Shown: positions 1-37,564 of the stretch, piece after piece
Position numbering within the stretch: the first letter of the stretch is position 1
Layout: the number at the start of each line of letters is the position of its first letter
IMG/VR virus record: IMGVR_UViG_2695420705_000025
DNA: 37,564 bases
Direction: 5' to 3' (one strand)
Source: a virus
Lineage: Duplodnaviria; Heunggongvirae; Uroviricota; Caudoviricetes
Notes under the pieces: model-generated
The model's database searches: none
Told to the model about the DNA's origin: nothing
The model's input: only the letters and a program-made list of their open reading frames with translations
Program-made: the position numbers and the translations under genes

Positions 1-228
1 ATGTGTTCCAACGAAAAGGCCCGTGATTGGCATCGTGCGGATGTGATTGCGGGACTTAAGAAAAGAAAGCTCTCTTTATCAGCTCTTTCCCGGCAGTTTG
101 GTTATGCGCCAACTACATTAGCTAATGCGCTAGAACGACACTGGCCAAAGGGTGAGCAGATTATTGCTAACGCCTTAGAAACTAAACCGGAAGTAATCTG
201 GCCTAGCCGATATCAAGCAGGTGAGTAA
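1..228 (+). CDS. ner: Ner DNA-binding transcriptional regulator (negative regulator of early transcription)
   Basis: 75-aa [51 protein letters not shown]..., recognised as Mu Ner; sits immediately upstream of the transposase gene. Confidence 0.95.
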
Positions 229-229
229 C

Positions 230-2221
230 ATGGAACTTTGGGTATCACCGAAAGAGTGTGCGAATCTTCCTGGTTTGCCGAAAACATCGGCTGGTGTGAT
301 TTATGTTGCTAAAAAGCAAGGATGGCAAAACCGCACTAGAGCAGGTGTCAAAGGTGGTAAAGCAATTGAATACAATGCGAACTCTTTACCTGTTGAAGCG
401 AAAGCGGCGTTATTGCTGAGACAAGGAGAGATTGAAACAAGCCTGGGGTATTTTGAAATCGCCCGCCCCACGCTGGAAGCCCATGATTATGATCGTGAGG
501 CACTGTGGAGCAAATGGGATAACGCCAGCGATTCCCAGCGCAGACTTGCTGAAAAATGGTTGCCTGCGGTTCAGGCTGCAGACGAAATGCTGAACCAGGG
601 GATTTCAACGAAAACGGCTTTTGCGACCGTTGCAGGGCATTACCAGGTCAGCGCATCCACTTTGCGGGACAAGTATTACCAGGTACAGAAGTTTGCGAAG
701 CCTGACTGGGCGGCTGCACTTGTTGATGGACGTGGAGCATCCCGTCGCAATGTTCACAAAAGTGAATTTGACGAGGATGCCTGGCAGTTTCTGATTGCAG
801 ATTATCTGCGACCGGAAAAACCCGCTTTCCGCAAATGTTATGAGCGTCTGGAACTGGCAGCCCGCGAGCATGGCTGGAGTATTCCCTCCCGTGCCACGGC
901 CTTTCGCCGGATTCAGCAACTGGACGAGGCAATGGTTGTTGCCTGTCGTGAAGGTGAACATGCACTGATGCATCTGATACCGGCACAGCAGCGAACTGTG
1001 GAACACCTGGACGCCATGCAGTGGATCAACGGCGACGGTTATCTGCATAACGTCTTTGTACGCTGGTTTAACGGTGATGTGATCCGTCCGAAAACATGGT
1101 TCTGGCAGGATGTGAAAACCCGAAAAATTCTGGGCTGGCGCTGCGATGTGAGCGAGAACATTGATTCAATTCGCCTCTCGTTCATGGATGTTGTGACTCG
1201 CTACGGTATCCCGGAGGATTTTCACATCACCATTGATAACACCCGTGGTGCTGCGAATAAATGGCTGACGGGAGGCGCGCCCAATCGCTACCGCTTTAAG
1301 GTAAAAGAGGACGATCCAAAAGGGCTGTTTTTACTGATGGGTGCGAAAATGCACTGGACAAGCGTTGTTGCTGGTAAAGGCTGGGGCCAGGCAAAACCTG
1401 TTGAACGTGCTTTCGGTGTTGGTGGGCTTGAGGAATACGTTGATAAGCATCCGGCACTGGCTGGCGCATATACGGGGCCTAATCCGCAGGCAAAACCTGA
1501 TAACTATGGCGACCGCGCTGTTGATGCAGAGCTGTTTCTGAAAACCCTTGCCGAAGGTGTGGCGATGTTCAATGCCAGAACAGGCCGTGAAACAGAAATG
1601 TGCGGAGGCAAACTTTCGTTTGATGACGTTTTTGAGCGTGAATACGCCAGAACGATTGTGCGTAAGCCTACCGAAGAGCAAAAACGGATGCTGTTACTGC
1701 CTGCCGAGGCGGTGAACGTTTCACGCAAAGGCGAGTTTACGCTTAAAGTTGGCGGCTCCCTTAAAGGCGCGAAAAACGTTTATTACAACATGGCGTTAAT
1801 GAATGCCGGAGTGAAAAAAGTTGTGGTCAGATTTGATCCACAGCAGTTACACAGCACGGTTTATTGCTACACCCTGGACGGTCGGTTTATCTGTGAAGCG
1901 GAATGTCTGGCACCTGTTGCGTTTAATGATGCTGCGGCAGGTCGTGAATATCGCCGCCGCCAGAAACAACTGAAATCTGCGACGAAAGCAGCGATTAAGG
2001 CACAGAAACAAATGGATGCACTGGAAGTGGCAGAGCTGCTGCCGCAGATAGCCGAACCTGAAGCACCAGAATCACGAATTGTCGGCATTTTCCGGCCTTC
2101 CGGTAATACGGAACGAGTGAAGAATCAGGAGCGTGATGATGAATACGAAACTGAGCGTGATGAATATCTGAATCATTCGCTGGATATTCTGGAACAGAAC
2201 AGACGTAAAAAAGCCATTTAA
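230..2221 (+). CDS. A: MuA DDE transposase
   Basis: 663 aa from the ATG at 230 ([32 protein letters not shown]...), 2 nt after the ner stop. The track ORF from 221 adds three residues (MSN) that I consider an upstream extension. Matches MuA by sequence memory. Confidence 0.95.
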
Positions 2222-20708: not shown

Positions 20709-20898
20709 ACCCGCAGCGGGAAAAGCCATCCGTGACCCGCTCACGATGAAATTACTGGCTCCGGAGGGAGAAGAAAAGCCCCGTAACAGTTTCTGGATAC
20801 GTCGCCTTGCAGCCGGTGATGTGGTTGAAGTCGGGAGCACCGAAAACACGGCGGATGATACCGACGCTGCGCCGAAAAAACGGAGTAAATCGAAATGA
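20692..20898 (+). CDS. Small hypothetical late protein (68 aa)
   Basis: Short ORF overlapping both neighbours, immediately upstream of the sheath gene. Confidence 0.45.
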
Positions 20899-22382
20899 GC
20901 GATATTTCATTTAACGCGATCCCGTCAGATGTTCGCGTTCCTCTGACGTATATCGAATTTGATAACAGCAATGCCGTCAGCGGAACACCGGCTCCCCGCC
21001 AGCGCGTGCTGATGTTCGGGCAAAGCGGAAGTAAAGCCAGTGCCGCACCGAACGTGCCTGTCCGTATCCGTTCCGGCTCACAGGCCAGTGCGGCGTTTGG
21101 TCAGGGTTCCATGCTGGCACTGATGGCAGATGCATTCCTGAACGCTAACCGCGTGGCGGAGCTGTGGTGTATCCCGCAGGGAAACGGCACCGGTAATGCT
21201 GCTGTCGGTGAAATCTCACTGTCAGGAACGGCAGGCGAAAACGGCTCGCTTGTGACCTATATTGCCGGTCAGCGACTGGCGGTATCCGTCGCAGCAGGTA
21301 CAAAAGGGGCTGCGCTGGCTGACCTGCTGGTTGCCCGAATCAAAGGCCAGCCGGATTTACCGGTGACGGCAGAAGTTCGCGCAGACAGCGGAGATGATGA
21401 CACCTATGCAGATGTGGTTCTGAGTGCAAAATTTACGGGTGCATTATCTGCCGTGGATGTGCGCTGGAACTATTACGCGGGTGAAACCACCCCTTACGGG
21501 ATTATCACGGCATTCAAAGCCGCCTCCGGTAAAAATGGCAACCCGGATATCAGCGCAAGTATCGCGGGAATGGGCGATCTGCAATACAAATATATTGTGA
21601 TGCCCTATACCGATGAACCGAACCTGAATCTGTTACGCACTGAATTGCAGGAACGCTGGGGACCGGTCAATCAGGCTGATGGCTTTGCTGTGACAGTGCT
21701 GTCCGGCACGTATGGGGATATTTCCACGTTTGGTGTCAGTCGTAATGATCATCTGATCTCCTGTATGGGGATTGCCGGTGCACCGGAACCGTCATATCTG
21801 TACGCCGCCACACTGTGTGCCGTTGCCAGCCAGGCGCTTTCCATCGACCCGGCGCGTCCTCTCCAGACGCTGACGTTGCCCGGAAGAATGCCGCCTGCGG
21901 TGGGGGATCGTTTCACCTGGTCAGAACGTAATGCGCTGCTGTTTGACGGCATCTCCACGTTTAACGTGAATGATGGTGGTGAAATGCAGATTGAACGCAT
22001 GATCACGATGTACCGCACAAACAAGTACGGTGACAGTGATCCGTCTTATCTGAACGTGAATACCATCGCCACGCTGAGTTATCTGCGTTATTCACTGCGA
22101 ACCCGCATCACGCAGAAATTCCCGAACTACAAGCTGGCAAGTGATGGCACCCGCTTTGCCACCGGTCAGGCCGTGGTGACGCCATCCGTGATCAAAACGG
22201 AGCTGCTGGCACTGTTTGAAGAATGGGAAAACGCCGGACTGGTCGAGGATTTCGACACGTTCAAAGAGGAGCTGTATGTGGCACGTAACAAGGACGACAA
22301 AGACCGTCTTGATGTGCTTTGCGGCCCGAATCTGATTAACCAGTTCCGCATTTTCGCGGCACAAGTTCAGTTCATTCTGTAA
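20895..22382 (+). CDS. L: Contractile tail sheath protein
   Basis: 495 aa, [26 protein letters not shown]...; recognised as Mu L. Confidence 0.88.
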
Positions 22383-22391
22383 GGAGCATTT

Positions 22392-22748
22392 ATGGCTGGA
22401 AATCAGCGTCAGGGGGTGGCGTTCATCCGTGTCAATGGCATGGAGCTTGAAACGATGGAAGGTGCCTCCTTCACGCCTTCCGGTATCACCCGTGAAGAAG
22501 TGACCGGCTCGCGGGTTTATGGCTGGAAAGGTAAACCACGTGCCGCAAAGCTGGAATGCAAAATTCCGGGCGGTGGTGATATCGGTCTGGATGAAATCAT
22601 CGGCTGGGAAAACATCACGGCAGAGTTTCAGGCAGACACCGGTGAAACCTGGATGATGGCGAATGCCTGGCAGGCAGATGAACCGAAAAACGACGGCGGC
22701 GAAATTTCGCTGGTACTGATGGCAAAACAAAGCAAACGCATTGCATAA
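22392..22748 (+). CDS. M: Tail tube protein
   Basis: 118 aa immediately after the sheath gene with an AAGGAG SD; canonical sheath-tube order. Confidence 0.8.
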   Translation: MAGNQRQGVAFIRVNGMELETMEGASFTPSGITREEVTGSRVYGWKGKPRAAKLECKIPGGGDIGLDEIIGWENITAEFQADTGETWMMANAWQADEPKNDGGEISLVLMAKQSKRIA

Positions 22749-22757
22749 GGGGAAACA

Positions 22758-23192
22758 ATGGACGAAATGAATTTAGGTCCTGAAGCACAGGAACTGCATG
22801 ACAGCATTGTGGCAGAAATTCAGTCCGGCGTGCTGAAACTGAAAGACGGCCTGCCGTTCGGCACCGGTGACGAGACTGAAATGCAGTATGACGTGACGCT
22901 GCGTGAACTGACCGCAGGCGATCTGATTGATGCCCAGGCGGCTGCTGAAAAGCTGGTAATGAGCAAGGAAGGCCCGGTGCTGGTCAGTTCCCCGTCCCGG
23001 ATGGGACTGGAAATGCTGCGCCGACAGATTGCCAGCGTGGGTTGCATCAAAGGCCCGTTATCGCTGGCGCTGATGCGCAAGCTGTCTGTTGATGACTTCC
23101 AGCGTCTGTCGCTGGCTACAGAAATGTACGACATGGCTGTGGCGGCATCGCTGACACAAGAACGGGGGCGAGTGGCTGCGGTGCCGGAATGA
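22758..23192 (+). CDS. Tail assembly chaperone-like protein (gp41 position)
   Basis: 144 aa between the tube and tape measure genes, the usual chaperone position in myoviruses. Confidence 0.6.
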   Translation: MDEMNLGPEAQELHDSIVAEIQSGVLKLKDGLPFGTGDETEMQYDVTLRELTAGDLIDAQAAAEKLVMSKEGPVLVSSPSRMGLEMLRRQIASVGCIKGPLSLALMRKLSVDDFQRLSLATEMYDMAVAASLTQERGRVAAVPE

Positions 23193-23336
23193 TATTGAGA
23201 AAGCGGCGACAGCGATTGGCGTTATTCTGAAAAGTGGCCCGGAATGGGCCTTATCCCTCCCGCTGTCCCGCTTTTTCCGGCACTGCCAGCAGGCTAAAAC
23301 CCTCTCTCAATATCACCGTTAAATCAGGAAATCTCT

Positions 23337-25412
23337 ATGACCGGGAAACGCTTAAAGGCGTCTGTCATTATTGATCTTAATGGCAATCTTTCCCGGCGTT
23401 CCCGCCAGTATTCGAACCAGATAAACGCCCTGTCCCGTAGCGGACAAAGTTCCCTTCGTGCCCTGCGTATGGAGGTTGTGCGCGTTTCTGGTGCCATTGA
23501 CAGAATGGGTTCACTGTCAACCCGTACATTCCGAATGCTGTCAGCCGGGGCGCTGGGTATCGCTGGTGTGGGTTACACCGCCAATAAACTGTTTATTGGT
23601 GCAGCCGCCCAGCGTGAGCAGCAAATTATCGCCATGAACTCGCTGTATCACGGCGATAAGGTCAGAGCGCAGGCCATGATGGCCTGGGCAAAGCAGAACG
23701 CGAAGGACACCACGTGGGGGCTGAGTGGTGTTCTGGATGAGATCCGTTCGTCGAAAGGCTTCGGCATGACGGATGAACAGACGAAACAGTTCATCACCAT
23801 GTTGCAGGATCAGGGGGCCATGCACGGCTGGGATTTACCCACTGCACAGGGTGCCTCACTGCAACTGAAACAGATGTTTGCCCGCCAGCAAATCACGGCG
23901 GCGGATGCCAACCTGCTGACCGGTTACGGTATTAACGTTTACCAGACGCTGGCGGATGCACTGGGTAAAGAAGACGTTAAGGATATCCGCAAACAAGGTG
24001 AAAAAGGCAAGCTGGGTCTGAAATCCATTCTGACGGTATTCAGAACGCTGTCAGAACAGTCAAAAGGTGCACAGGCCAGTGCGATGAACTCCTGGGACGG
24101 GATGTTCGCCCAGATGGAAGCTAACCTGCTTGAATTTCGCATAAAGGTGGCAAACAGCGGCCCCTTTGAAGAAATCAAGAACGAGATGCGCCGGGTGCTT
24201 AACTGGCACGACATGGCGGATAAATCCGGGGAACTTGACGCACTGGCAGAAAACATTGGTCAGAAATTTCTGACCACGTTCAGAACGGTAAAAATCGCGG
24301 CGCAGGAATTATGGCGCTGGCTGAAACCGGGTAAAGATGCGCTGGCATGGGTTGACCAGAATATTGTCAGCCTGAAAAAACTGGCTGCTGTTCTGGTGTC
24401 TGTCTGGCTTGCCAATAAAGCCCTGAGAGCAGGCTGGGCCGTGGCAAAACCCTCATGGCAGGTTGCCAGTTATCCGTTTAAAACCGGGCGTCGTATGTGG
24501 CGCTGGATGCGAAACCGCAAACGTGGGCAGGCAGGTCTGCCGGTCCCGGATGCCATGACGTCTGAGACGCTGTTGCAGGGTATCGGCATTCAGCGTGTGT
24601 TTGTCATCAACTGGCCCCGTGGATTTGGTGGCTACGGGAGTGGCGGCGGTCGTCGCGGACGGAGCGGCGGAAGAATGGCCCCGCTGTTACCCCGCCAGCC
24701 GTTATTGCTGTCCGGGCCACAGCCGCTGGCATTACCTGCACCACGCCCTGTACTGGCATTACCCCCACCCGGCGTACCGGTAACAGCACGGCCTGCACCA
24801 TTACCTTTACCCGGTAAATCCGGTCTTCTGAGCAGGCTTGCAGGCAGTGCTGCCGGGCAACTGGTTACGGGAACGGTCGGAAAGCTGGCTGATGCCGGGC
24901 GTGCTGTTGGCGGGTGGTTTTCCGGTATCGGAAACAAACTTGCAGGCAGTGCGATCGGTCGGGTTGTGACAAAAGGTGCCGGGGCGCTGGGCTGGATGGG
25001 GAAAGGTGCCGGTCGTGTGTTGTCACGTCTGGGTGGCCCAGTAATGGGGGCACTCCAGCTTGCCCCCGTCCTGATGGATGAGCAGGCGTCAACCCATGAA
25101 AAAGCAGGCGCAATTGGCAGTACAGCCGGTGCATGGCTCGGCGGTGCCGTTGGCAGCCTTGCCGGACCGCTGGGTACGGTTGCCGGTGCCACGCTGGGCA
25201 GTGTCGCCGGGGAGTATCTGGGCGGTTTTGTAACCGACCTGTATCAGAAATGGACGGCCCCGGATAAGGAACCGCAGGAACAAAAAGTGAATGCGGAAGC
25301 CTCGCTGCGCGTCGAACTTGCCGAGGGGTTACGTCTGACCAGTTCCCGCGTCACCGAGGACGGTATGGGGCTGAATATTTACGCGGGCGATAACTACATT
25401 ACAGGCTGGTAA
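23337..25412 (+). CDS. Tail tape measure protein
   Basis: 691 aa, the largest tail ORF, with a Gly/Arg/Pro-rich low-complexity core and a Gly-rich C-terminal segment ([13 protein letters not shown]..., [20 protein letters not shown]). Confidence 0.8.
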
Positions 25413-35995: not shown

Positions 35996-36053
35996 ATAAT
36001 GGCTGTTTCCGGCCTGCATGGCATGATTTGCGCTTTTAAACGGGAGATCCAGA

Positions 36054-36647
36054 GTGCTGATTGGCTATGTAAGGGTATCAACAAATGACCAGAATACAGA
36101 CCTGCAACGAAACGCTCTTGTTTGTGCAGGATGTGAACAAATATTTGAAGATAAATTAAGCGGAACAAGGACAGACAGACCTGGATTAAAACGCGCTTTA
36201 AAGCGCCTTCAAAAAGGTGACACACTTGTTGTCTGGAAACTGGATCGCCTCGGGCGAAGCATGAAACATTTGATTTCTCTCGTAGGGGAATTACGAGAGC
36301 GAGGGATTAATTTTCGCAGTCTTACTGACAGTATTGATACGTCATCTCCAATGGGGCGTTTTTTCTTCCACGTTATGGGTGCCCTGGCTGAGATGGAACG
36401 AGAACTAATCATCGAGCGAACGATGGCTGGACTTGCTGCCGCCAGAAATAAAGGCCGTATTGGTGGGCGACCACCTAAACTAACCAAAGCGGAATGGGAG
36501 CAGGCCGGGCGTTTATTAGCACAAGGAATCCCCCGCAAGCAGGTTGCATTGATCTACGATGTGGCCCTGTCAACTCTGTATAAAAAACACCCCGCGAAAC
36601 GAACGCATATAGAAAACGACGATCGAATCAATCAAATCGATCGGTAA
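36054..36647 (+). CDS. gin: Gin serine recombinase (DNA invertase), copy 2
   Basis: Identical to the 34434-35027 copy. Confidence 0.92.
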   Translation: MLIGYVRVSTNDQNTDLQRNALVCAGCEQIFEDKLSGTRTDRPGLKRALKRLQKGDTLVVWKLDRLGRSMKHLISLVGELRERGINFRSLTDSIDTSSPMGRFFFHVMGALAEMERELIIERTMAGLAAARNKGRIGGRPPKLTKAEWEQAGRLLAQGIPRKQVALIYDVALSTLYKKHPAKRTHIENDDRINQIDR

Positions 36648-36655
36648 TACAGATC
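36621..36655. promoter_or_regulatory. Cluster of three GATC (Dam) sites, mom upstream regulatory region, copy 2 (the one actually upstream of com-mom)
   Basis: Same sequence as 35001-35035 at an offset of 1620 bp. Confidence 0.6.
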
Positions 36656-36729
36656 GATTATGTCTCAATAACCACACTCAACCCATGATGTTTTTTAAGA
36701 TAGTGGCGAATTGATGCAAAGGAGGTGAG

Positions 36730-36918
36730 ATGAAATCAATTCGCTGTAAAAACTGCAACAAACTGTTATTTAAGGCGGATTCCTTTGATCACATTGAAAT
36801 CAGGTGTCCGCGTTGCAAACGTCACATCATAATGCTGAATGCCTGCGAGCATCCCATGGAGAAACATTGTGGGAAAAGAGAAAAAATCACGCATTCTGAC
36901 GAAACCGTGCGTTATTGA
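36730..36918 (+). CDS. com: Com, zinc-finger translational activator of mom
   Basis: 62 aa, [62 protein letters not shown], with CxxC...CxxC zinc finger; overlaps the mom start. Confidence 0.9.
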
Positions 36919-37564
36919 GTATGAAGGCCAGATTGTTGGCTATGGTTCAAAGGAGCTGCGCGTTGAAACCATATCTTGCTGGCTGGCCCGCACAATTATT
37001 CAGACAAAGCACTATTCCCGCCGTTTTGTGAATAACTCTTACCTCCACCTGGGAGTATTCAGCGGACGCGATCTGGTTGGCGTTCTCCAGTGGGGATATG
37101 CCCTTAACCCCAACTCAGGTCGTCGTGTCGTGCTTGAAACGGATAACCGGGGCTATATGGAGTTGAACCGCATGTGGCTACACGACGACATGCCCCGCAA
37201 CTCTGAATCACGGGCCATCAGTTATGCACTGAAAACCATAAGGTTACTGTATCCGTCAGTGGAGTGGGTTCAGTCTTTTGCAGACGAACGCTGCGGACGT
37301 GCTGGCGTTGTGTATCAGGCGTCAAATTTTGATTTTATTGGCAGCCATGAAAGCACGTTCTACGAGCTGGATGGTGAGTGGTATCACGAGATAACGATGA
37401 ACGCGATTAAACGCGGTGGACAACGAGGCGTGTATTTACGGGCTAATAAAGAGCGTGCCGTGGTGCACAAATTTAATCAGTATCGCTACATCAGGTTCCT
37501 GAACAAGCGAGCAAGGAAGCGACTAAATACCAAGCTATTCAAGGTTCAGCCATACCCTAAGTGA
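36839..37564 (+). CDS. mom: Mom DNA modification enzyme (adenine carbamoylmethylation, anti-restriction)
   Basis: 241-aa ORF starting inside com and ending at the last base of the window; recognised as Mu Mom. The exact start codon may be downstream of 36839. Confidence 0.88.

What the first reader, a model, noticed from the sequence alone, without database searches (positions are those of the whole stretch)
23150..23336. Possible programmed-frameshift extension of the tail chaperone-like gene before the tape measure
The 144-bp gap between gp41 and the tape measure gene is open in the +1 frame for about 60 codons (from 23155 to the TAA at about 23329), so a frameshift near the gp41 3' end would give a C-terminally extended product. 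Tail assembly chaperones immediately upstream of tape measure genes commonly have such a two-product arrangement. A G-run (CGGGGGC at 23163-23169) lies just upstream of the stop, but I see no canonical slippery heptamer.
Basis: inference. Interest (0 to 1): 0.4.

Follow-up and report, generated by a model that had tools for sequence, protein, structure and literature searches.

The report
Known Mu-type −2 frameshift, tail chaperone
The open frame after gp41 is real and is the already published programmed −2 ribosomal frameshift of phage Mu's tail assembly chaperone, here in a D108-type copy whose public annotation still lists the extension as a separate small gene.

Summary
The gp41–tape measure gap is 144 bp, the +1 (= −2) frame is open from 23155 to a TAA at 23320-23322 (55 codons, not about 60), and CGGGGGC lies at 23163-23169. 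The window matches phage D108 at 100% here and Mu at 96.9%. The GenBank Mu record annotates this feature as Mu_56, "verified -2 translational frameshift in PMID 15469818". The published slip site GG_GGG_CGA is at 23164-23171, and the predicted product is 188 aa. Comparative evidence gathered here supports it: of 94 related loci (41-100% protein identity), 93 reach the site and all keep GGGGCGA; it is in frame in 90. In 89 of those a 44-50 aa −2-frame ORF runs to about the tape-measure start. dN/dS is 0.07-0.33 in that frame and at least 0.5 in the others. The frame has no ATG/GTG/TTG. Two residual points remain. D108 records mis-annotate the extension as a CTG-started gene "41.5". A long-range RNA helix starting about 3 nt after the slip site shows covariation and recurs across lineages; I could not find it described.

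The parts
22758..23192 (+). gp41, zero-frame tail assembly chaperone (144 aa), the lambda gpG analogue
   Evidence: ORF list. Pfam PF23746 Gp41_Mu, E=2e-34, and phrog_508 'tail assembly chaperone', E=4.5e-47. Annotated as gene 41 in D108 and as Mu_41 in Mu.
23164..23171 (+). Slip site GG_GGG_CGA (zero-frame codons CGG 23163-65, GGG 23166-68, CGA 23169-71)
   Evidence: Identical to the Mu site. Published as the tandem -2 slip sequence (PMC3458567). It is the only GGGGGCGA on either strand of the window. GGGGCGA is invariant in all 93 related loci that reach the site, although GGG and CGA are only 18% and 8% of Gly and Arg codons in this phage. G137 and R138 are invariant in the protein family alignment.
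23170..23322 (+). -2/+1-frame extension, 50 codons plus TAA (EWLRCRNDIEKAATAIGVILKSGPEWALSLPLSRFFRHCQQAKTLSQYHR), the lambda T-domain analogue
   Evidence: Translation. phrog_12783, E=8.6e-29. dN/dS is 0.07-0.33 in this frame against 0.5 or more in the other two. No ATG/GTG/TTG in the frame. The AlphaFold model of a natural fused variant shows a helical hairpin, pLDDT about 85.
22758..23322 (+). Frameshift fusion CDS, join(22758..23171, 23170..23322), 188 aa, the D108 equivalent of Mu FS-gp41 / Mu_56
   Evidence: Model built. The same construction on Mu DNA reproduces GenBank UIW09302.1 exactly. The D108 version is not deposited in the 15-billion-protein collection.
23176..23322 (+). 'Gene 41.5' as annotated in D108 records (48 aa, CTG start): a mis-annotation of the frameshift extension
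   Evidence: GQ357916.1 and NC_013594.1 feature tables. The start codon is CTG. The deposited protein P0042 begins MRCRNDIEK....
23172..23188 (+). 5' arm of long-range RNA helix 1 (GUGGCUGCGGUGCCGGA); its solid part starts 3 nt after the slip site
   Evidence: MFE of 23172-23321 is -59.9 kcal/mol, z=-3.7. Helix 1 is 90.8% paired across 21 distinct enterobacterial sequences, with 5 pairs changed on both sides.
23276..23294 (+). 3' arm of helix 1 (UCCGGCACUGCCAGCAGGC), inside the extension ORF
   Evidence: Compensatory examples: GUGCCGG/CCGGCAC (D108), GUGUCGG/CCGACAC (Kluyvera), GUAUCGG/CCGGUAC (Enterobacteriaceae MAG).
23199..23275 (+). Inner helix 2 (23199-23214 with 23261-23275) and apical hairpin (23236-23240 with 23246-23250) of the same RNA domain
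   Evidence: Helix 2 is 78% paired with 9 pairs changed on both sides; the apical hairpin is 93% paired.
23337..25412 (+). Tape measure protein gene gp42 (691 aa); RBS AGGA at 23326-23329
   Evidence: ORF list. Annotations in D108 and Mu, including the Mu RBS feature.
22392..22748 (+). Tail tube gene (gp40/M), upstream context that defines the tube - chaperone - tape measure order
   Evidence: ORF list and annotations.

Best explanation
This is the D108 copy of phage Mu's programmed -2 ribosomal frameshift in the tail assembly chaperone gene. Most ribosomes translate gp41 to its TGA at 23190 and make the 144-aa chaperone. A small fraction, about 2% in vivo as reported for Mu, slip two nucleotides backwards on GG_GGG_CGA (23164-23171) and continue at GAG 23170 in the -2/+1 frame for 50 codons to TAA 23320. 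This makes a 188-aa fusion that shares residues 1-138 with gp41 and carries an alpha-helical hairpin extension. By analogy with lambda gpG/gpGT, the shared part is expected to coat the tape measure protein gp42. The extension is expected to recruit the tail tube protein, and the fixed low ratio of the two products is expected to be needed for correct tail assembly. Shown here: sequence identity to the Mu site, conservation of the slip site and frame, purifying selection on the extension, and the absence of an independent start codon. Taken from literature or annotation: the product is made in Mu and the shift is -2. Inferred: the roles of the two domains, and a modulating role for the conserved RNA helix that starts about 3 nt downstream of the site.
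For: The window is 100% identical to D108 and 96.9% to Mu over 22392-23700. It differs from Mu at 4 of 246 bases around the site; the two differences inside the extension are synonymous in the -2 frame. AF083977.1 annotates Mu_56 as 'verified -2 translational frameshift in PMID 15469818'. My -2 model on Mu DNA equals UIW09302.1 residue for residue. The literature gives -2 in Mu (PMC5009743), tandem slip on GG GGG CGA with A-site tRNA-Arg ICG (PMC3458567), about 2.2% efficiency (PMC3498833), and 14% for the bare 10-mer in PURExpress (bioRxiv 10.1101/2025.10.02.679949). Comparative: of 94 related loci (19 close and 61 diverged IMG/VR loci plus 14 genome loci; Escherichia, Kluyvera, Erwinia, Edwardsiella, Vibrio, Aeromonas, Aliivibrio, Pluralibacter, Bilophila), 93 reach this part of the gene and all have GGGGCGA. 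It lies in the zero frame in 90. In 89 of those a 44-50 aa -2-frame ORF follows (32 aa in L096), and where the tape-measure start was located (12 representatives) it ends 46 nt inside to 14 nt before that start. The -1 frame closes early in all but one diverged locus (L032). dN/dS is 0.07-0.33 in the extension frame against 0.5 or more in the others. The extension matches phrog_12783 at E=9e-29. There is no canonical start codon in the frame, and no promoter or +-strand terminator in the gap.
Against: No protein-level evidence exists for D108 itself; everything experimental comes from Mu. I could not read Xu et al. 2004, so the experimental details are second-hand. Public models disagree on the junction residue: GenBank has RGR|EW and UniProt P0DJY4 has RGG|EW. 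The exact tRNA event is therefore not settled by what I could access. The roles of the two domains rest on the lambda analogy, with no sequence or fold similarity to back them: no PDB match by sequence or fold.
Confidence: 0.93

Rival explanations
1. Same site and same frame, but a different slip event from the tandem -2 model. One option is P-site-only -2 slippage of tRNA-Gly before the slowly decoded CGA is read (junction ...RGG|EW, as in UniProt P0DJY4). The other is a +1 slip (junction ...RG|EW, 187 aa).
For: UniProt P0DJY4 carries RGGEW whereas GenBank UIW09302.1 carries RGREW. CGA is a rare codon here, 8% of Arg codons, and rests on an I:A wobble (own knowledge), which would favour a shift while the A site is empty. 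Relatives with only four Gs and a normal frame layout (TCG_GGG_CGA in L028/L053, CAG_GGG_CGA in L051/L052, AAG_GGG_CGA in L055) give poorer P-site re-pairing for a -2 shift. The reporter assays I could read cannot tell -2 from +1.
Against: Reviews that cite the primary work state -2 and tandem slippage with tRNA-Arg. The GenBank note says 'verified -2'. CGA is invariant across the family, which suggests the A-site codon identity matters and not only its slowness.
Confidence: 0.12
2. The extension is an independent small gene ('41.5', 48 aa) translated from its own start, as annotated in the D108 GenBank and RefSeq records.
For: It is annotated that way in GQ357916.1 and NC_013594.1. A PHROG family of such short proteins exists (phrog_12783).
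Against: The annotated start is CTG at 23176, inside gp41. The open frame has no ATG, GTG or TTG at all. Across lineages the constant feature is the slip site upstream, not a start codon. The Mu record was re-annotated as a frameshift fusion. The PHROG family is most simply explained by the same mis-annotation repeated in other genomes.
Confidence: 0.02
3. Transcriptional slippage by RNA polymerase on the G5 run produces a minority of mRNAs with an altered G count, and these encode the fusion.
For: A homopolymer run lies at the site. Single-ORF fused copies with one G fewer occur in assemblies (P0001, P0002, P0006, L025, L027), which shows the run is indel-prone at the DNA or sequencing level.
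Against: Five Gs is short for productive transcriptional slippage (own knowledge). Deleting one G would give RGEW and adding two would give RGGEW-type junctions, neither matching the RGREW of the GenBank model. The invariant CGA after the run has no role in a transcriptional model. The bare 10-mer shifts 14% in a purified translation system, although that system transcribes with T7 RNA polymerase.
Confidence: 0.02
4. The open frame is a chance feature of a non-coding spacer between gp41 and the tape measure gene.
For: An open stretch of 55 or more codons occurs in about 9-11% of comparable stretches by chance.
Against: The frame, its length and its end point are conserved in relatives down to 41% gp41 identity. 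dN/dS is well below 1 only in that frame. A protein motif (LP[LIV][SR][RH]L..R) is shared across lineages.
Confidence: 0.01

Closest known systems
Phage Mu gp41 / FS-gp41 (Mu_41 / Mu_56; UniProt P0DJY4), programmed -2 frameshift; Xu, Hendrix & Duda 2004, Mol Cell 16:11 (PMID 15469818)
   Same: It is the same gene, the same slip site GG_GGG_CGA, an identical 50-aa extension, and the same position between the tail tube and tape measure genes. D108 and Mu are placed in one species, Muvirus mu.
   Different: The zero-frame part has a few amino-acid substitutions (L56M, L103M, M106I). The D108 records annotate the extension as a separate ORF 41.5 rather than a frameshift product.
Phage lambda gpG / gpGT, programmed -1 frameshift on G_GGA_AAG (Levin, Hendrix & Casjens 1993; Xu et al. 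2013, 2014)
   Same: The gene position is the same, immediately upstream of the tape measure gene. The logic is the same: an abundant short chaperone plus a rare C-terminally extended fusion made by ribosomal frameshifting near the 3' end. Neither product is expected in virions (PMC5009743).
   Different: The direction is -2 rather than -1. The slip site is not an X_XXY_YYZ heptamer. Pfam finds only Gp41_Mu, so no sequence similarity was detected. The phage has a contractile tail rather than a siphovirus tail.
Phage P2 gpE / gpE+E' (-1 frameshift), Pfam PF10109 Phage_TAC_7 'E, or 41 or 14'
   Same: It is a myovirus tail chaperone pair in the same gene position. There is weak profile similarity (PF10109, E=7e-5).
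   Different: The score of 23.2 bits is below the curated cut-off of 25. P2 uses a -1 shift.
Arterivirus nsp2TF -2 frameshift (G_GUU_UUU) and engineered -2 shifting on U6A with short spacers (Lin et al. 2012, PMC3458567)
   Same: The direction is -2. In the engineered system short spacers to a 3' structure favour -2 over -1, which fits the helix starting about 3 nt after the D108 slip site.
   Different: They are eukaryotic systems with different slip sequences. The arterivirus stimulator is a protein-RNA complex rather than a helix (own knowledge).

Membership tests
Mu-type gp41/FS-gp41 -2 frameshift cassette | The upstream ORF is a Gp41_Mu-family tail assembly chaperone | tested here: met
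   PF23746, E=2e-34, 118 bits against a cut-off of 27. 96.9% DNA identity to Mu.
Mu-type gp41/FS-gp41 -2 frameshift cassette | Slip sequence GG_GGG_CGA in the zero frame a few codons before the gp41 stop | tested here: met
   At 23164-23171, 21 nt before the TGA. Identical to Mu. Sequence as published.
Mu-type gp41/FS-gp41 -2 frameshift cassette | A roughly 50-codon ORF in the -2/+1 frame, without its own start codon, ending just before the tape measure start | tested here: met
   23170-23322, with TAA 14 nt before ATG 23337 and no ATG/GTG/TTG.
Mu-type gp41/FS-gp41 -2 frameshift cassette | The fusion protein is actually produced, with a junction consistent with -2 | not testable with these tools
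   Reported for Mu only (GenBank note; reviews). GenBank and UniProt differ at the junction residue.
Lambda G/GT-type tail assembly chaperone pair (functional class) | Located between the major tail/tube gene and the tape measure gene | tested here: met
   Order is sheath 20895-22382, tube 22392-22748, gp41 22758-23192, tape measure 23337-25412.
Lambda G/GT-type tail assembly chaperone pair (functional class) | Canonical -1 slippery heptamer X_XXY_YYZ with the extension in the -1 frame | tested here: not met
   The -1 frame closes at TGA 23228, no heptamer is present, and the extension is in the -2/+1 frame.
Lambda G/GT-type tail assembly chaperone pair (functional class) | The short product binds the tape measure protein, the extension binds the tube protein, and the product ratio is critical | not testable with these tools
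   Inference from lambda (PMC5009743). No structural homologue was found to support it.
Pfam PF10109 Phage_TAC_7 (P2 E / Mu 41 / 14) | Score at or above the curated gathering threshold | tested here: not met
   23.2 bits against a cut-off of 25, E=7.3e-5. Some homologues carry the precomputed domain.
Independent small protein gene ('41.5') | Own canonical start codon with a ribosome-binding site | tested here: not met
   No ATG/GTG/TTG in the open frame. The annotated start is CTG 23176, inside gp41.
3' stimulatory RNA structure of a frameshift site | A stable helix starting within a few nucleotides 3' of the slip site | tested here: met
   D108 z=-3.7. A helix of 5 bp or more starts within 8 nt in 20 of 21 lineage representatives against 51% of controls. 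Pairing probability of nt 1-18 is 0.73 against 0.55, p=3e-7. Window z is -2.2 against -0.6, p=5e-7.
3' stimulatory RNA structure of a frameshift site | Base pairs supported by covariation | tested here: inconclusive
   Enterobacterial group: 85.7% paired against 40-49% slid, 14 pairs with double changes against 5.5±1.4 shuffled (0/500). There is no common register across the whole family. Synonymous-recoding z is only -1.5 on average.
3' stimulatory RNA structure of a frameshift site | Disrupting the structure changes frameshift efficiency or direction | not testable with these tools
   The bare 10-mer already shifts 14% in vitro without the structure, so the structure is not strictly required.

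The most novel reading that the evidence does not exclude
The slip site is accompanied by a so-far undescribed conserved RNA domain. A long-range helix starts about 3 nt after GG_GGG_CGA, pairs with a segment about 100 nt downstream, and encloses almost the whole extension ORF. It is maintained by compensatory changes in enterobacterial Mu-like phages, and helices of unrelated sequence occupy the same place in Vibrio, Aeromonas, Aliivibrio and Bilophila relatives. Its very short spacer would pull the mRNA and bias slippage to -2 rather than -1, or otherwise tune the ratio of the two chaperone products. Alternatively, it could couple gp41 termination to tape-measure initiation across the 144-nt gap.
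Probability: 0.3. Interest if true: 0.45.

Novelty: already known. Interest (0 to 1): 0.17.

Why it matters
The Mu site is the classical natural example of programmed -2 ribosomal frameshifting, long cited as the only known one, and part of the conserved G/GT-type tail chaperone strategy of tailed phages. Re-finding it from raw sequence shows the scan can recognise genuine recoding signals that lack a canonical heptamer. The practical results are modest. The D108 GenBank and RefSeq records, and probably the many records behind phrog_12783, should annotate a 188-aa frameshift fusion instead of a CTG-started "41.5" gene. GenBank and UniProt disagree on the junction residue of the Mu product. The slip site is shown here to be nucleotide-invariant across a much wider host range than Mu itself. 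If the downstream helix proves to be a real modulator, it would give a natural bacterial test case for the idea that spacer length sets -1 versus -2 direction.

Tried and rejected
(1) The primary paper (PMID 15469818) is not held, so I relied on the GenBank note and three open-access papers that cite it.
(2) The first genome-contig scan with the single protein found nothing. The alignment-based scan worked.
(3) Pfam has no family for the extension. There is no solved structure by sequence or by fold (best Foldseek E=0.17, TM 0.3 or less), so the lambda-like roles of the two domains could not be supported structurally.
(4) RNAalifold found no consensus structure on family-wide alignments of the first 116 nt. 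It also found none on a second, non-enterobacterial group, where per-sequence helices are offset by a few nucleotides. Column-wise covariation is therefore only available within the enterobacterial group.
(5) Local hairpins within 60-90 nt of the site are not better than shuffles (z +0.2 and -0.5), which rejects a simple short stem-loop stimulator.
(6) Rfam 15 has no match in 23000-23450.
(7) There is no promoter or +-strand terminator in the gap, which rejects a separate transcription unit for the extension.
(8) ORF length as evidence in itself is rejected, at about 10% by chance.
(9) Literature searches for a described 3' stimulator of the Mu site found none in the accessible library. That is not proof of absence.

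Full report
**What is in the sequence.**
gp41 occupies 22758-23192 (144 aa) and the 691-aa tape measure gene starts at ATG 23337, which leaves a 144-bp gap. Relative to gp41, the +1 (equivalently -2) frame is open from 23155 to TAA 23320-23322. The -1 frame closes at 23228. CGGGGGC is at 23163-23169 as stated. An open stretch of this size is not rare in itself: 9.3% of shuffles and 11.3% of all stop-to-stop stretches in the window reach it. The case therefore has to rest on other evidence.

**Identity of the locus.**
Window 22392-23700 is 100% identical to Escherichia phage D108 (GQ357916.1, NC_013594.1) and 96.9% identical to phage Mu. The left end of the window is closer to Mu (99.7%) and the right end carries gin/com/mom, so the window is a Mu/D108-type mosaic genome. 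The current Mu record AF083977.1 carries a two-piece CDS, Mu_56, over exactly the homologous span. Its note reads 'verified -2 translational frameshift in PMID 15469818; tail assembly chaperone frameshift product'. The D108 records instead list a separate 48-aa gene '41.5' that starts at CTG 23176. Mu and D108 differ at only 4 of 246 bases around the site. The two differences inside the extension are synonymous in the -2 frame.

**What the literature says.**
- The Atkins et al. 2016 review lists Mu among the users of -2 frameshifting (PMC5009743).
- Lin et al. 2012 give the mechanism as tandem -2 slippage on GG GGG CGA, with the A-site tRNA-Arg (anticodon ICG) re-pairing better in the -2 than in the -1 frame (PMC3458567).
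- Firth et al. 2012 call it the only known natural programmed -2 case, with about 2.2% efficiency (PMC3498833).
- A 2025 preprint measured 14% shifting into the +1 frame for the bare Mu 10-mer in a purified translation system.
- I could not access the primary paper.

**The product.**
Reading the zero frame through CGA (23169-23171) and resuming at 23170 gives a 188-aa protein: 138 residues shared with gp41 plus EWLRCRNDIEKAATAIGVILKSGPEWALSLPLSRFFRHCQQAKTLSQYHR. The same construction on Mu DNA reproduces GenBank UIW09302.1 exactly. The D108 version is not present in the 15-billion-protein collection. UniProt P0DJY4 for Mu has Gly instead of Arg at the junction (RGG|EW against RGR|EW). That corresponds to a P-site-only -2 slip, so the public records disagree on the exact event.

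The N-terminal part matches Pfam Gp41_Mu (E=2e-34) and phrog_508 'tail assembly chaperone'. The extension matches phrog_12783, of unknown function, at E=9e-29 and has no Pfam family. An AlphaFold model of a natural single-ORF fused variant (P0001) is confident, with mean pLDDT 85. It shows the C-terminal helix of gp41 running straight through the junction, a turn at the conserved S/G-G-P, and a second helix. Nothing in the PDB resembles it by sequence or fold.

I collected 19 close and 61 more diverged IMG/VR loci plus 14 loci from bacterial genomes. These are 94 loci in total, at 41-100% gp41 identity. Hosts include Escherichia, Kluyvera, Erwinia, Edwardsiella, Apirhabdus, Pluralibacter, Vibrio, Aliivibrio, Aeromonas and the deltaproteobacterium Bilophila.
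- One locus, the 271-base contig L036, ends before this part of the gene.
- The three exceptions are two sequencings of one degraded Kluyvera copy (L025, L044) and an Erwinia assembly (L027), each with one G fewer so that the two frames are fused.
- Most loci have CGG_GGG_CGA. Variants are G7 (L026) and G4 with a normal frame layout (TCG_, CAG_ and AAG_GGG_CGA).
- In 89 of the 90 a -2/+1 ORF of 44-50 codons follows (32 codons in L096). Where I located the tape-measure start (12 representatives), that ORF ends 46 nt inside to 14 nt before it.
- The -1 frame closes early in all but one diverged locus (Bilophila, L032).
- In a ten-sequence alignment spanning the family, GGGGCGA is the only invariant block.
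- G137 and R138 are invariant in the protein alignment.
- GGG and CGA are only 18% and 8% of Gly and Arg codons in this phage, and GGGGGCGA occurs once in the whole window.
- Extension peptides diverge but keep a common pattern...LP[LIV][SR][RH]L..R....
- In the non-overlapping part, dN/dS against D108 is 0.07-0.33 in the extension frame, and 0 for two near-identical loci. It is 0.5 to above 7 in the other two frames.
- The frame contains no ATG, GTG or TTG, and the gap has no promoter or +-strand terminator.

Chance, an independent gene and a separate transcript are therefore all poor explanations.

**Mechanism and function.**
The best-supported reading has most ribosomes terminating at 23190 to give gp41, while a few percent slip back two nucleotides on GG_GGG_CGA and make the 188-aa fusion. 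The functional part is inference from lambda gpG/gpGT. The shared domain would bind the tape measure protein, the extension would recruit the tube protein, neither would end up in the virion, and the ratio of the two would matter. The locus fails the canonical '-1 heptamer' feature of the lambda class. It works like G/GT but belongs to the Mu gp41 family, not to the lambda family.

**An additional feature: a long-range RNA helix.**
- Folding 23172-23321 gives a long-range domain of -59.9 kcal/mol with z=-3.7. The 5' arm GGCUGCGGUGCCGG starts 3 nt after the slip site and pairs with CCGGCACUGCCAGC about 100 nt downstream. Shorter local folds are no better than shuffles.
- On a gap-free alignment of 23 enterobacterial relatives, 85.7% of pair cells are standard pairs against 40-49% when the partners are slid. 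Fourteen pairs change on both sides against 5.5±1.4 in shuffles (0/500), and the covariation score is 0.213 against 0.097 or less. Examples include non-synonymous changes on both arms that preserve pairing (GUA/UAC for GUG/CAC).
- Across 21 lineage representatives, the 150 nt after the site fold better than control windows from the same loci (mean z -2.2 against -0.6, p=5e-7).
- In 20 of those 21, a helix of 5 bp or more starts within 8 nt of the site, against 51% of controls. It usually pairs to a partner 60-120 nt away.
- Native sequences fold better than synonymous recodings in 19 of 21, with mean z -1.5.
- Caveats: the lineages are not independent, no common register exists outside the enterobacterial group, the 5' arm is doubly coding, and the bare 10-mer already shifts efficiently in vitro.
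- The short spacer fits the reported tendency of short spacers to favour -2 over -1. A role in coupling gp41 termination to tape-measure initiation is equally open.
- Rfam has no family here. I found no description of this element in the accessible literature, but I could not check the primary paper.

**Verdict.**
The feature is the already known and experimentally verified Mu -2 frameshift, present unchanged in D108. Three points are new here:
- an annotation correction for D108;
- a discrepancy between the GenBank and UniProt junction residues for the Mu product;
- evidence for a conserved downstream RNA structure, which would need experiments to mean anything.

Noticed in passing
window 23176-23322: The D108 GenBank and RefSeq records annotate the frameshift extension as a separate 48-aa gene '41.5' with a CTG start (ACV50301.1 / YP_003335790.1). 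The 188-aa D108 fusion is not deposited anywhere in the protein collection. phrog_12783 probably collects the same mis-annotation from other genomes.
   Followed up: yes
Mu homologue of window 23166-23172 (P0041 vs P0045): GenBank UIW09302.1 and UniProt P0DJY4, both 188 aa, give different junction residues for the Mu frameshift product: ...ERGR|EWL... against ...ERGG|EWL.... These imply tandem and P-site-only -2 slippage respectively.
   Followed up: partly
L025/L044 (Kluyvera genomosp. 3), L027 (Erwinia tracheiphila), proteins P0001, P0002, P0006, P0057, P0047: Some assemblies carry single-ORF 'pre-fused' copies (junction RGEW) with one G fewer in the run. P0047 has RGQW, from a deletion outside the run. 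L025 has a further indel in the extension. These could be homopolymer sequencing errors or decayed prophages that make only the long product.
   Followed up: partly
L028/L053, L051/L052, L055, L026: Natural slip-site variants with a normal two-frame layout: TCG_GGG_CGA, CAG_GGG_CGA and AAG_GGG_CGA (four Gs) and CAG_GGG_GGG_CGA (seven Gs). In L055 the zero-frame stop follows CGA immediately (GGG_CGA_TAG), and in L071, L072, L074 and L096 it is two codons later.
   Followed up: partly
window 23172-23294: A long-range RNA helix encloses the extension ORF, with covariation in enterobacterial relatives and analogous helices in distant lineages. It is absent from Rfam.
   Followed up: yes
window 1-1500 and 36000-37564: The window is not colinear with the D108 record throughout. 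Its first 1.5 kb is 99.7% identical to Mu positions 1099-2598 (ner and the transposase A gene), the tail region is 100% D108, and the right end carries gin/com/mom. This suggests a Mu/D108 mosaic, probably a prophage.
   Followed up: partly
L032, L058-L065 (Bilophila wadsworthia and gut metagenome viral contigs): The same gp41-type chaperone is present in Mu-like prophages of a deltaproteobacterium, with an identical CGG_GGG_CGA site and a 49-aa -2-frame extension. This is far outside the enterobacterial hosts where the shift was studied.
   Followed up: partly
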